A stretch of DNA of 64,000 nt from an uncultured Gammaproteobacteria bacterium. Lineage in GTDB: Bacteria > Patescibacteriota > Microgenomatia > Levybacterales > UBA12049. The position numbers are program-made. The DNA is taken from positions 29,723 to 93,722 of the forward strand of contig OZ246394.1 in the NCBI GenBank assembly GCA_965230895.1, in the 5' to 3' direction. Positions 30,001 to 33,000 of this stretch are shown in pieces (position 1 is the stretch's first letter; each line of letters opens with the position of its first letter).

Positions 30001-33000
30001 TGAAATTAGTAGAATGGATGCAAGAGAATGGAATGGTGCGAGATTATATGGATATGACGGGTGAGGATCTGTTACAGGGTTTACTCGCTCAGTCTCGTGA
30101 ACGGTTGCTACAACCGCAAGGAGTTTAGTTATGAGAGAAATCAATGGGCCAAGCGAGTTTCCAGCTATAGGGGCCTTTCAACAAGGGGAAGTCCGTCCAG
30201 CGCTCCCAAAACATATTGTGAGCGCTGATAAAGCAGGGACTAGTCATCCAGTACCTGCCAGAAAACAAGCCTCAATAGTCGAAGGTTACTTTGGTCCAAC
30301 TTGGAAAGATAGAACTGTTGCGAAACTTGTCAGTGAGAAAATGGTTAGAGAAGGAGTCGTAGATGAAAGAAACACTCCAGCTGGTGAGAACCCAAAATAT
30401 TTTACACTCTACGATTCTCCTTTAGAAAATACTGATTCCGAATCTTCTTCAAATGAAAATAATGGTCAACCAGCTTCTTATGGAAAAAGTTTTGAAGGAA
30501 TACCCCCTGATTATAAATCATTGAAAGAATACCTTGATGAATCCCTCCCCGAGCATCCCGTAGGTATCGATATTGGCGGAACAGGGAGTAAACTATTTCG
30601 AGGGTTTGATAAGCCTTTTGCCTTATCGCTTGGTCTCACACTTGTGGATAGGCGTGATCCTGCTACGCAACAATTGGATGCAAGCAGAGGCCATGGAGTT
30701 ATAGAAGGTGATATCCAATCAAATGCAGTGAAAGAAGCTGTGAAACGAAGCTTGGATGGTAGACAAGCTGATGTAATGTTCCTTCGTATGGGTGCTGGAG
30801 CAGATTACTTAGAGCAGAATCCTTATGCAATGGCAGACCATTTCAATGATTATTATCAGTTTCTTTCAGCTCAAAATGGGAAAATGTTTGTCGAAGTTCC
30901 TAAACTTCTTCTGCCTTTAACAAAGCAGTGGACATGGAAAGTTGGGACTGAGTTTGAGGGAAGGTTAGGCATAGTAAGCTCACCTTATTTAGAGGGATAT
31001 CTTGAACTCGAAAAACTCCCTGACGCACCAGAAGATATTCGAGATACCATGCTTCCGGCTCGCGATGTACGAGATACATATGATGTCTTTTTCGGTAAAA
31101 AGTTTAGCCAAGAGCGTTTTGAAAGAATCATTCTTGGGAGACCTTTGCGCCATTAATATCAGTTCATTGCATTACATTTGGGTCTTGATACAACTGGTCG
31201 AAAAAGTATTCCACACGCTTTAACAATGGTATATCGTCCTCAAAAGTAGTCATCGTAATTCGACGACAGCTTTACTTTATGTGTTATACTACGTCATTAT
31301 GGCAGTACACAATGAATCATTCGATGGGAGTAGACAGTCAAAAGAAATCCGCCCAAGATCTTTCTCACAAGAAGCGACCGATGCACCTCCACCAAGAGTA
31401 AGAAGAATTGTTTCTCCAGACAAAGTTGCTGAATCAAGAGCTTTATCGAAACCAAGGCAAATTTTTCCATCAGTTACTGGAGAGACGACAAGAAGAGTTA
31501 GCCCTATGGACCGAGACGAATCGCCTGAAATTCATGCGTCTATTCCTCAGGACCAGATACCAGAAGAAGTTAAAACTCAGAACCAACCAATTCCACCTTC
31601 TGATCGATTGCCTCGTGATATTGTACAGCCTGATGAGATTGGAATACGTAGAGAGCCTAGAGATGAAAGAGTGCTTCCAAATGAACCTCATGACGAGCAG
31701 TCTCCTCAAGGAGACAAATTAGAGAAACTCGGGACGTACAGAAGAATAAGTAGATCTGCACGAGCAATTTATAGTTATCTTGAAAGAGTAGATGAGGCTG
31801 AAGAAACAGTAAACCAATATGGAGAAGTGCAACGTACTGCTTCGTGGAGTAATACATTGCGGGATGGAGACAGAATCACAACAATTACTTCATATCATCT
31901 CACGACTGACGGAAGCCTCGAGGGTTATGATGATAGATTAACACTAACAAGAAAAACCACGAATAGCATGCCTGACGGGGGGAGAATAATACGTGATACT
32001 TCATGGGTAATGCTTGGTGAAGGAACAGTGGTTGATTATGGGATTACGATAGCAGAGCCACCAGCAAAACTTCGTGGGACAACTGGTCCTGACGTTCCAG
32101 GTCCACGACATGCACTTCCAGAAGTAGAACTTCCTGGACAGAGAGATCCAGTAAGTGATAGTTTTCCTACTATTGGCAGAGCAGAACGATACGAGCCTCT
32201 CCAAGAACATAATGAACGGGTAGAACGAGGCGATCCTCGTGAAGGTAATGTTACGACTGCAGGAAGAGATGAGTTGATACGAATTCTTGAAGAACGAGCA
32301 GAAGGAACAATATTCCGAGTCGAGCATATCACCGAAGCTGCAGGTAAAGGGCCCGTAACCCTTGATAATCGTGCTCACGCGGCAGTACTCGGCACAAGTC
32401 TTGATGAGGTAATTGAGCTGATTCGTACAGGTGTGTTGAGAGAAACAGGTCCGGAGGATATTCATGCCGTACCTACACGAGTGTTGGAACCTGTCATCCA
32501 AACATTCAGTTCGGCTGCATCAAAACCTATACTTGATGCTCTTGAAGATCCAGCAGCAAGAGCTGAAGAATTGGGAGTAGCTGCTGGAAGAGATGCTCAG
32601 CTCCACGCGGCAAATAAAGCGCTTGGTTTGCCAATTGAAGATACAAGATTAGCTGGCTGGTTAGAACAGGCCGGAGCAGCATCTGATATTCCGGAAGAGC
32701 TTGGGTTGGCTACTGGCAGAGCAAATGCTGTTTATGAAGTCGCAAAGGAACGAAAAGGCTTTCTTCTTGCTATCGGAAATGCTGCCGCTCGGGCTAACGA
32801 TTTGCAAATTGCTCCCGGTGAACAAGGTGATTTTTCCGTACGTTTCCAAACAGGAGAAAATGGATTGCTCTATAAAATGATTTCAGGAATTCAGGCACTT
32901 GGACCTCAGGAAGAGGAGTTTATTAACGATTTGAGAACATCAAGAGATATCCAGGCTGTCCTCACAAAATGGGAAGCACCCATAGCATAAACTATACTGA

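What the first reader, a model, noticed from the sequence alone, without database searches (positions are those of the whole stretch)
30131..31156. Methyltransferase-like island protein has a chromosomal paralog with a degenerate leader 32 kb away
Seen: island gene 13 and ORF 62979-63761 are collinear over about 230 aa. Shared blocks are LKEY, hhDhGxxGS motif I, xLxDxRD, GDxxS, LDGxxAxVxxxRM, VExPKxL and a C-terminal AP(D/E)(E/D). The chromosomal copy begins MSFFEGGRPPRPIPTPVPRG, which looks like an eroded SF..G..PP....I..P leader without the RRIVSP core. Either the leader system extends beyond the island, or the chromosomal gene is an escaped or ancestral copy. The comparison gives a natural with-and-without-leader pair for experiments. 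A motif I of GIDIGGTG/VLDLGSIG is consistent with SAM binding, but the substrate is unknown.
Basis: partly seen in the sequence, partly recalled or inferred. Interest (0 to 1): 0.55.

Follow-up and report, generated by a model that had tools for sequence, protein, structure and literature searches.

The report
Two diverged methyltransferase-fold paralogs; no eroded leader
The island gene and the distant chromosomal gene are real but anciently diverged copies of an unannotated methyltransferase-fold protein family common in ultra-small (CPR/Patescibacteria) bacteria, and the chromosomal copy's N-terminus is the family's ordinary start, not a worn-down version of the island's shared leader.

Summary
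ORF 30131-31156 (341 aa) and ORF 62979-63761 (260 aa) are homologous: 30% identity over 201 aa, E=4e-22.

The "degenerate leader" reading fails. A Smith-Waterman-versus-shuffle test detects 14 of 14 island leaders and gene 13, but places the chromosomal N-terminus at background (130 and 96 of 200 shuffles). In family alignments the chromosomal start (conserved R11) matches residues 52-63 (R61) of the island protein. The island leader (aa 8-34) is therefore an add-on upstream of a complete family module.

The duplication is old. The island copy falls in a seven-member "long-form" clade (bootstrap 80), and the chromosomal copy pairs with other short forms.

The interest is modest. It lies mainly in the new family and in the leader being fused to a housekeeping-type enzyme.

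The parts
30131..31156 (+). Island gene 13, 341 aa. It is a long-form member of the unannotated CPR class I methyltransferase-fold family. AAGGAG lies 8 nt upstream, and there is a 2-nt gap after the stop of the upstream gene.
   Evidence: (profile E=2.6e-104)
30152..30232 (+). Divergent copy of the island's shared N-terminal leader (aa 8-34, SEFPAIGAFQQGEVRPALPKHIVSADK). It is closest to the leader of gene 23121 (RPALPESGIVSPDR).
   Evidence: The HMM gives only 5.2 bits. The Smith-Waterman-versus-shuffle test gives 3/1000 (maximum score) and 0/1000 (top-5 mean), and 0/200.
30284..30319 (+). The family's own N-terminal motif, displaced inward (aa 52-63, GYFGPTWKDRTV). R61 occupies the family's 87%-conserved Arg column.
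30461..31060 (+). Methyltransferase-fold core of the island copy (aa 111-310). Key residues are motif I IDIGGTGS (aa 146-153, nt 30566-30589), D173, H188, G193-D194, R219, Y242, W267, K295 and A299-P300.
31061..31153 (+). C-terminal extension (aa 311-341) typical of the long-form clade (..AR[ED]VR..Y...F..).
62979..63761 (+). Chromosomal paralog, 260 aa. It is a standard short-form family member and lies between fba (minus strand) and an FAD-oxidase gene.
   Evidence: profile E=1.5e-110
62979..63032 (+). Disordered, Pro/Arg-rich N-terminal segment (aa 1-18, MSFFEGGRPPRPIPTPVP). R11 sits in the family's conserved N-terminal Arg column. It is not leader-like.
   Evidence: pLDDT is 44-57. Leader tests are at background. 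There is a weak match to the N-terminus of family member P0076 (10/500 shuffles).
63033..63107 (+). Predicted N-terminal helix (aa 19-43). It contains the GIVLS string that superficially resembles the leader core.
63144..63758 (+). Methyltransferase-fold core of the chromosomal copy (aa 56-260). Strand 1 (aa 92-97) is followed by motif I LDLGSIGS (aa 95-102, nt 63261-63284). Strand 2 (113-120) is followed by D123. Strand 3 (141-145) is followed by G146-D147. Strand 4 (167-170) is followed by R171-M172. Strands 5-7 follow, ending in a hairpin.
62965..62973 (+). Extended -10-like element TGtTATAAT, 5 nt before the ATG at 62979, with no Shine-Dalgarno sequence. The transcript is probably leaderless.
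   Evidence: Read directly from the sequence. The consensus scan, which requires a -35 hexamer, did not call it.

Best explanation
Both genes encode members of one unannotated protein family whose core has the class I (Rossmann-like, seven-stranded) S-adenosylmethionine methyltransferase fold. The family's labelled members and relatives are Patescibacteria (CPR). The family keeps the three cofactor-binding landmarks at the right structural positions. These are a Gly-rich loop after strand 1 ([ED]-x-G-G-x-G-S), an acidic residue after strand 2 (D123 in the chromosomal copy, D173 in the island copy), and G-D after strand 3. It also has its own signature after strand 4 (R171/R219-Met), plus H141, Y194, W219 and a C-terminal K..GAP..LPLL tail. 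The most likely activity is therefore SAM-dependent methyl transfer to an unknown substrate. This step is inferred, not shown.

The chromosomal gene is the canonical short form: a disordered N-terminal tip with a conserved Arg, then a helix, an SPL motif and the methyltransferase core. It stands alone among housekeeping genes, as in other CPR genomes.

The island gene belongs to a separate, acidic long-form clade. It carries the complete family module, including its own copy of the N-terminal Arg motif at aa 52-63. Upstream of that module sit about 50 extra residues containing a divergent copy of the leader found on every island gene.

The island gene is thus a housekeeping-type enzyme that has been tagged with the island leader. 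The chromosomal gene is not a decayed leader-bearing gene. The duplication, or the acquisition of the long form, predates this species.
For: Paralogy: BLASTP E=4e-22.

Family: an exhaustive profile search found 529 representatives at E<=1e-3 and 322 at E<=1e-10. No Pfam or NCBIfam model matches. One member is labelled Candidatus Paceibacterota. The closest CysS relatives of the window organism are Patescibacteria and Levyibacteriota MAGs.

Motif conservation in 170 sequences, kept in both window copies: G98 98%, G101 92%, D123 94% (plus 5% E), H141 99%, R171 92%, Y194 98%.

Leader as an add-on: full-length alignments place chromosomal R11 and island R61 in one 87%-Arg column.

No leader on the chromosomal copy. 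The shuffle test detects 14 of 14 known leaders in leave-one-out.

Ancient split: the island copy scores 167, 155, 118 and 118 bits against P0025, P0024, P0136 and P0135, but 69 bits against the chromosomal copy. The chromosomal copy scores 173 bits against P0004. In an NJ tree the long-form clade of 7 has bootstrap 80.

Context: other family members are standalone among core genes.
Against: There is no direct evidence of SAM binding or catalysis, and no significant sequence match to any methyltransferase model (at best 2 of 58 members hit Methyltransf_23 at E=0.013).

The chromosomal copy has Ser at the second Gly of motif I, a position that is Gly in 99% of the family.

A narrow HMM of the family's N-terminal FPxGxERK motif does not score the chromosomal N-terminus. 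A 40-aa N-terminal family HMM ranks it first in the window, but only at E=0.037. Positional homology of the N-terminus therefore rests on full-length alignments.

Deep nodes of the NJ tree are unsupported, and the chromosomal copy's pairing with P0004 has bootstrap only 51.

The leader HMM is insensitive, recovering 9 of 14 leaders in leave-one-out, so the HMM negative alone would be weak.

The rest of the 1.61-Mb genome could not be surveyed.
Confidence: 0.72

Rival explanations
1. First reader's reading. The chromosomal protein carries an eroded version of the island leader (SF..G..PP....I..P without the RRIVSP core), so the leader system reaches beyond the island.
For: By eye, MSFFEGGRPP resembles the extreme N-termini of several island proteins (ESFEGKHP, ESFDSRRP, REFDGRTP), and GIVLS at aa 31-35 recalls GIVSP. 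The leader HMM is insensitive to divergent leaders, so an HMM negative alone is not decisive.
Against: The leader HMM gives -1.2 bits. The shuffle test detects 14 of 14 leaders, gene 13, ORF 20474 and the ATPase, but places this N-terminus at background (130 and 96 of 200; 624 and 445 of 1000). It is typical of the 37 non-island proteins. The resemblance is compositional (Pro/Arg/Gly). In family alignments this segment is homologous to island aa 52-63, downstream of the island leader. GIVLS lies inside a predicted helix. No ORF outside 10-38.7 kb scores with the leader model.
Confidence: 0.05
2. The chromosomal gene is a recent escapee from the island. An island copy was duplicated, moved 32 kb away and lost its leader.
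For: The two genes are the only members of the family in this window and lie on the same strand of one replicon.
Against: The two proteins share only 30% identity. Each has far closer relatives in other organisms. The island copy clusters with long forms at bootstrap 80, excluding the chromosomal copy. The chromosomal copy has the majority architecture (136 of 170 sequences are 300 aa or shorter) and the housekeeping-type context seen in other genomes. The pI values are 8.5 versus 5.35.
Confidence: 0.04
3. The family has the methyltransferase fold but is not a methyltransferase. It could be a SAM-binding or ligand-binding regulator, a pseudoenzyme, or an enzyme using SAM differently (aminocarboxypropyl transfer, a spermidine-synthase-like reaction or decarboxylated SAM).
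Against: All three cofactor-binding landmarks are conserved at 92-99%, which pseudoenzymes usually lose. Nearly all top structural neighbours are active methyltransferases.
Confidence: 0.18

Closest known systems
Class I SAM-dependent methyltransferase superfamily (structural neighbours: 4VPMT2 8zsa, plantazolicin MTase BpumL 5dm4, SpnK 8ia9, DOT1L 4ek9, fibrillarin 2ipx, TrmR 5zw3)
   Different: No sequence model of any methyltransferase family matches. Identity to all neighbours is 8-21%. Motif I reads G-G-x-G-S rather than G-x-G-x-G. An invariant Arg-Met follows strand 4. The family has its own N-terminal helix with an SPL motif and a C-terminal K..GAP..LPLL tail. No structural subfamily stands out.
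RlmE/FtsJ (RrmJ, MRM2) 2'-O-ribose RNA methyltransferases
   Different: The K-D-K-E catalytic tetrad is not kept: D124 aligns with R171, and K164 with E207 or Q. Pfam FtsJ hits only 1 of 58 members, at E=0.087.
The island's own leader-bearing protein set (window 10087-38717)
   Same: Gene 13 lies in the island, is translationally close-coupled to its upstream neighbour, and has a statistically supported N-terminal leader.
   Different: Its leader is among the most divergent (5.2 bits with the HMM). The chromosomal paralog fails every leader test and lies 24 kb beyond the island's end.

Membership tests
Class I SAM-dependent methyltransferase fold (superfamily) | Seven-stranded alpha/beta Rossmann-like sheet ending in a beta6-beta7 hairpin | tested here: met
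Class I SAM-dependent methyltransferase fold (superfamily) | Gly-rich motif I after strand 1 | tested here: met
   The motif is [ED]-x-G-G-x-G-S, with G98 98%, position 99 Gly in 99% and G101 92% of 170 sequences. The island copy has IDIGGTGS and the chromosomal copy LDLGSIGS, with Ser at position 99.
Class I SAM-dependent methyltransferase fold (superfamily) | Acidic residue at the end of strand 2 (ribose contact) and D/N after strand 3 (adenine contact) | tested here: met
   D123/D173 is D in 94% and E in 5%. G146-D147/G193-D194 is conserved. Positions come from the model's secondary structure. The contacts themselves are inferred.
Class I SAM-dependent methyltransferase fold (superfamily) | SAM binding and methyl transfer | not testable with these tools
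   This needs biochemistry.
Any curated methyltransferase sequence family (Pfam/NCBIfam) | Score above the family's gathering threshold | tested here: not met
   Neither protein hits any family even at E<=1. Across 58 family members there are only marginal hits: Methyltransf_23 in 2 of 58 (E=0.013) and FtsJ in 1 of 58 (E=0.087).
RlmE/FtsJ 2'-O-methyltransferases | K-D-K-E catalytic tetrad | tested here: not met
   hhalign of the family profile against E. coli RlmE aligns D124 with R171 and K164 with E207 or Q. The RlmE sequence was recalled from memory.
Island leader-bearing proteins (this window) | N-terminal leader ..[RG][ST]F..(E/D)G..P[PA]R..R[IV]VS[PL].. | tested here: met
   This row concerns island gene 13. 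The HMM is weak (5.2 bits). The shuffle test gives 3/1000 and 0/1000 and 0/200. The test's sensitivity is 14 of 14 in leave-one-out.
Island leader-bearing proteins (this window) | The same leader on the chromosomal paralog 62979-63761 | tested here: not met
   The HMM gives -1.2 bits, E=54. The shuffle test gives 624 and 445 of 1000 and 130 and 96 of 200. The N-terminus aligns with the family's own N-terminal segment instead.
Unannotated CPR methyltransferase-fold family (defined here by the profile) | Full-length collinear match including SPL, LK.YIE, GGxGS, L.D.R, NH.V..GD, ERM.GG, WY..L, W and K..GAP..LPLL | tested here: met
   Both window proteins keep nearly all columns conserved at 75% or more. 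Profile E-values are 1.5e-110 and 2.6e-104, and the nearest non-self hits reach 1e-42.

The most novel reading that the evidence does not exclude
The island copy is a cargo or effector version of a housekeeping methyltransferase. A complete family module was captured by fusion to the island's leader. It is then handled together with the leader-tagged sigma factors and the leader-tagged HerA/FtsK-type ATPase by an undescribed targeting, assembly or export system of a CPR bacterium. It might act on a host cell's RNA or proteins. The leaderless long-form relatives (P0025, P0045, P0049) and the chromosomal short form would then record the steps by which the enzyme was recruited.
Probability: 0.15. 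Interest if true: 0.75.

Novelty: new member of a known kind. Interest (0 to 1): 0.4.

Why it matters
The result removes a false lead. In this window there is no evidence that the leader system reaches beyond the island.

It also yields two usable facts. First, a sizeable protein family (529 clusters at 50% identity) has no Pfam or NCBIfam model but has a confident class I methyltransferase fold and intact cofactor motifs. It is a good target for annotation and biochemistry in organisms whose gene content is largely unexplained. Second, the island protein shows cleanly how the leader is used. It is bolted onto the front of a complete, otherwise cytoplasmic-type enzyme, just as it is on two sigma factors. 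This constrains what the leader can be: a portable targeting or assembly tag, not part of a catalytic domain. It also suggests leader-swap experiments.

Tried and rejected
- Word-indexed homology searches with each single protein found only the query itself. The exhaustive profile search was needed.
- AlphaFold with only the two paralogs as the alignment gave pLDDT 43 and was discarded.
- PDB sequence searches with the single protein and with the family profile found nothing meaningful. The Rab GTPase matches at E about 0.1 are chance.
- Scans for relatives of the long-form clade found none, so the contexts of P0024, P0025, P0135 and P0136 could not be examined. The scans covered genome contigs, metagenome contigs and viral contigs.
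- The short-form scan of viral contigs found none. tblastn against phages and plasmids found none.
- A metagenome scan with the island ATPase found none.
- Family alignments A3 and A7 were too diverse for pattern scanning.
- The afdb50 fold library was unavailable.
- The leader HMM alone was rejected as a decisive test after leave-one-out showed it recovers only 9 of 14 leaders. The shuffle test replaced it.
- A narrow HMM of the family's FPxGxERK motif had no statistical power.
- PHROGs and PADLOC gave nothing for either paralog.
- Higher island G+C is not evidence of foreign origin. GC3 is lower in island genes, so the difference reflects amino-acid composition.
- pI gave no uniform nucleic-acid-binding signal for the family.
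- Literature searches found no description of this family or of the leader.

Full report
**Observation.** ORF 30131-31156 (+, 341 aa) and ORF 62979-63761 (+, 260 aa) exist as described. BLASTP aligns island residues 111-303 with chromosomal residues 56-254 at 30% identity and 50% positives, E=4e-22. In an all-against-all comparison of 53 window proteins this is one of only three domain-level paralog pairs. The chromosomal protein does start MSFFEGGRPPRPIPTPVPRG.

**Family.** Neither protein matches any Pfam or NCBIfam model, even at E<=1, nor any PDB sequence. Word-indexed searches returned only the queries themselves. An exhaustive HMMER search used a profile of the shared region. It found 529 cluster representatives at E<=1e-3, 322 at E<=1e-10 and 39 at E<=1e-30.

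I collected 170 family sequences. Of these, 136 are 300 aa or shorter, and motif I starts at a median residue of 92. It starts at 95 in the chromosomal copy and 146 in the island copy.

The one taxonomically labelled member is from Candidatus Paceibacterota. The window organism is itself a patescibacterium. Its CysS is 81% identical to that of a "Patescibacteria group" MAG and 63-69% identical to several Candidatus Levyibacteriota MAGs.

In six contexts, counting this window, family members are standalone genes among core genes. They lie after rpsF-ssb-rpsR, beside rpoBC/trmD, beside pyrG, beside ackA, and here beside fba. No conserved neighbour points to a substrate.

**Fold.** With only the two paralogs as the alignment, AlphaFold failed (pLDDT 43). 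With 24 family sequences it gave pLDDT 86.6 and pTM 0.84.

- The secondary-structure order is the class I methyltransferase pattern: strand 92-97, strand 113-120, strand 141-145, strand 167-170, strand 202-207, then a 231-236/241-246 hairpin, with helices between.
- Foldseek gave 261 PDB hits at E<=1e-3, led by DOT1L, fibrillarin, COMT and TrmR.
- The viral library gave only generic methyltransferases.
- No subfamily stands out.

FtsJ/MRM2 entries have the highest identities (17-21%). An hhalign of the family profile against E. coli RlmE matches strands 3-5 (probability 62%, E=7.6e-5). However, RlmE's catalytic D124 and K164 align with R171 and with E207 or Q, so the K-D-K-E tetrad is not kept.

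**Conserved residues.** Across the 170 sequences the cofactor landmarks are strongly conserved and present in both window copies:

- [ED]-x-G-G-x-G-S after strand 1 (G98 98%, G101 92%);
- D123/D173 after strand 2 (94% D, 5% E);
- G146-D147 after strand 3.

Family-specific residues are also conserved: H141 (99%), R171 (92%), Y194 (98%), W219 (94%), K246 and A250-P251. The chromosomal copy is unusual in having Ser at the second Gly of motif I. I infer SAM-dependent methyl transfer to an unknown substrate. This is an inference from fold and motifs, not a demonstration.

**The leader.** Fourteen island proteins share an alignable N-terminal segment, roughly P.G...[RG][ST]F......(E/D)G..P[PA]R..R[IV]VS[PL]D. 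A 31-node HMM built without gene 13 scores nothing outside 10-38.7 kb in the window's 457 six-frame ORFs. It gives gene 13 5.2 bits (E=0.5) and the chromosomal N-terminus -1.2 bits (E=54).

The training sequences match that HMM by construction, so I ran leave-one-out models. These recover only 9 of 14 leaders, so the HMM negative alone is weak.

I therefore used a second test. It takes Smith-Waterman scores of the first 50-70 residues against the leader segments and compares them with composition-preserving shuffles of the query. In leave-one-out, all 14 leaders are detected (top-5 statistic reached by at most 2 of 500 shuffles). Gene 13 is detected (0/200; 3/1000 and 0/1000). The chromosomal N-terminus is at background (130 and 96 of 200; 624 and 445 of 1000) and is indistinguishable from the other 36 non-island proteins.

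**What the chromosomal N-terminus is.** In three independent family alignments (24, 15 and 170 sequences) residues 3-12 of the chromosomal protein align with the family's own N-terminal motif. That motif often reads FPxG[KQ]ERK or YSGRRPDR. The same columns hold residues 52-63 of the island protein (GYFGPTWKDRTV). Chromosomal R11 and island R61 share a column that is Arg in 87% of sequences.

The island leader (aa 8-34) therefore lies upstream of a complete family module. The GIVLS string at chromosomal residues 31-35 is inside a predicted helix.

Statistical support for the N-terminal motif on its own is weak:

- a 40-aa family N-terminal HMM ranks the chromosomal ORF first in the window, but at E=0.037;
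- a narrow motif HMM has no power;
- the best single match is to the N-terminus of family member P0076 (FHPERPLRPLNSPVP against FEGGRPPRPIPTPVP), reached by 10 of 500 shuffles.

**Age of the split.** The island copy scores 167, 155, 118 and 118 bits against P0025, P0024, P0136 and P0135, but 69 bits against the chromosomal copy. The chromosomal copy scores 173 and 160 bits against P0004 and P0003.

An NJ tree of 69 sequences and 245 columns places the island copy in a clade of seven long forms (331-380 aa) with bootstrap 80. The chromosomal copy pairs with P0004 (bootstrap 51), and deeper nodes are unresolved.

Within the long-form clade, four members have N-terminal extensions and three start directly at the family motif. 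Only P0135's extension is marginally leader-like (18/1000). The long-form clade is acidic (pI 4.85-6.8; island copy 5.35). The chromosomal copy is basic (pI 8.5). The pair is therefore a poor matched control for leader function.

**Origin.** There are no relatives in phage, plasmid or viral-contig collections. The island's higher G+C (0.432 against 0.399) comes with lower GC3 (0.25 against 0.31). It therefore reflects Pro/Gly/Arg/Ala-rich proteins rather than foreign DNA.

**Verdict.** The paralogy and the methyltransferase-like nature are confirmed, and the family is new to the annotation databases. The eroded-leader idea, and the suggestion that the leader system extends beyond the island, are not supported. 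The chromosomal gene is the ancestral-type short form. The island gene is a leader-tagged member of a separate long-form clade.

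Noticed in passing
window 16946-20425 (-): The island's large HerA/FtsK-type ATPase has weak similarity to the TraD coupling protein, VirB4, DUF87 and PADLOC mad8. It carries the leader itself: MSNHETGRGAPEAGRNISFSGAETTPTRPPIRSLERSG, reached by 0-1 of 200 shuffles. The leader is therefore not simply a substrate tag read by this ATPase.
   Followed up: partly
window 10087-38717, both strands: Every gene in this 28.6-kb block (about 18) has the N-terminal leader. 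This includes ORF 20474-21817 (0/200 shuffles) and a small ORF at about 21823-22170 (MRESFRDGKGES...SGAEGAPPPLL, which lacks the RIVSP core). No ORF outside the block scores with the leader model.
   Followed up: partly
window 14560-15417 (+) and 36106-37494 (+): Two leader-bearing sigma-70 family proteins. One is ECF/SigE-like (Sigma70_r2 and r4). The other is SigB/F/G-like (r2, r3, r4) with an extra C-terminal HTH_11. A leaderless ECF sigma lies at 48968-49573 (-), with only weak similarity to the first (E=2.5e-5).
   Followed up: partly
window 25038-27833, 23121-24926, 36106-37494, 10087-13053, 14560-15417, 31281-32990: The R-[IV]-[IV]-S-[PL] core of the leader is repeated two or three times within the first ~80-90 residues of several island proteins, for example RIISP, RIVSP and RVVSL in 25038.
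   Followed up: no
window 28827-30128 and 37533-38717: These two island proteins of unknown function are full-length paralogs: 28% identity over 421 aa, E=1.5e-39. They share an HPE[LI] motif. Neither has a Pfam match.
   Followed up: no
window 62965-62981: An extended -10-like TGtTATAAT ends 5 nt before the ATG of the chromosomal paralog, and there is no Shine-Dalgarno sequence. This suggests a leaderless mRNA. An in-frame ATG at codon 26 has a GAGGAG 14 nt upstream, but using it would delete the family's conserved N-terminal Arg.
   Followed up: partly
family proteins P0076, P0060, P0111, P0124, P0138, P0100, P0037 (not in the window): About 19 of 170 family members from other organisms have long Pro-rich N-terminal extensions. 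These start with similar strings, such as MTFHPERP.., MTIHPEQP.., MLPRPNEPP.. and MLPSPDN... They may be a different lineage-specific N-terminal tag on the same enzyme family.
   Followed up: no
window 603-1937 (-): This non-island protein of unknown function has an N-terminus, after the likely true start (MSEFGPEGGPSSAEQKRTLPERF), that is marginally leader-like in the shuffle test (14 and 4 of 200). With 37 proteins tested this is compatible with chance.
   Followed up: no
window 49565-52232: Genes for an isopentenyl phosphate kinase-like protein, an IDI-like Nudix protein and UPP synthase lie together. I identified them by reading the translations only. The genome contig is 1.61 Mb, which is large for a patescibacterium.
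   Followed up: no
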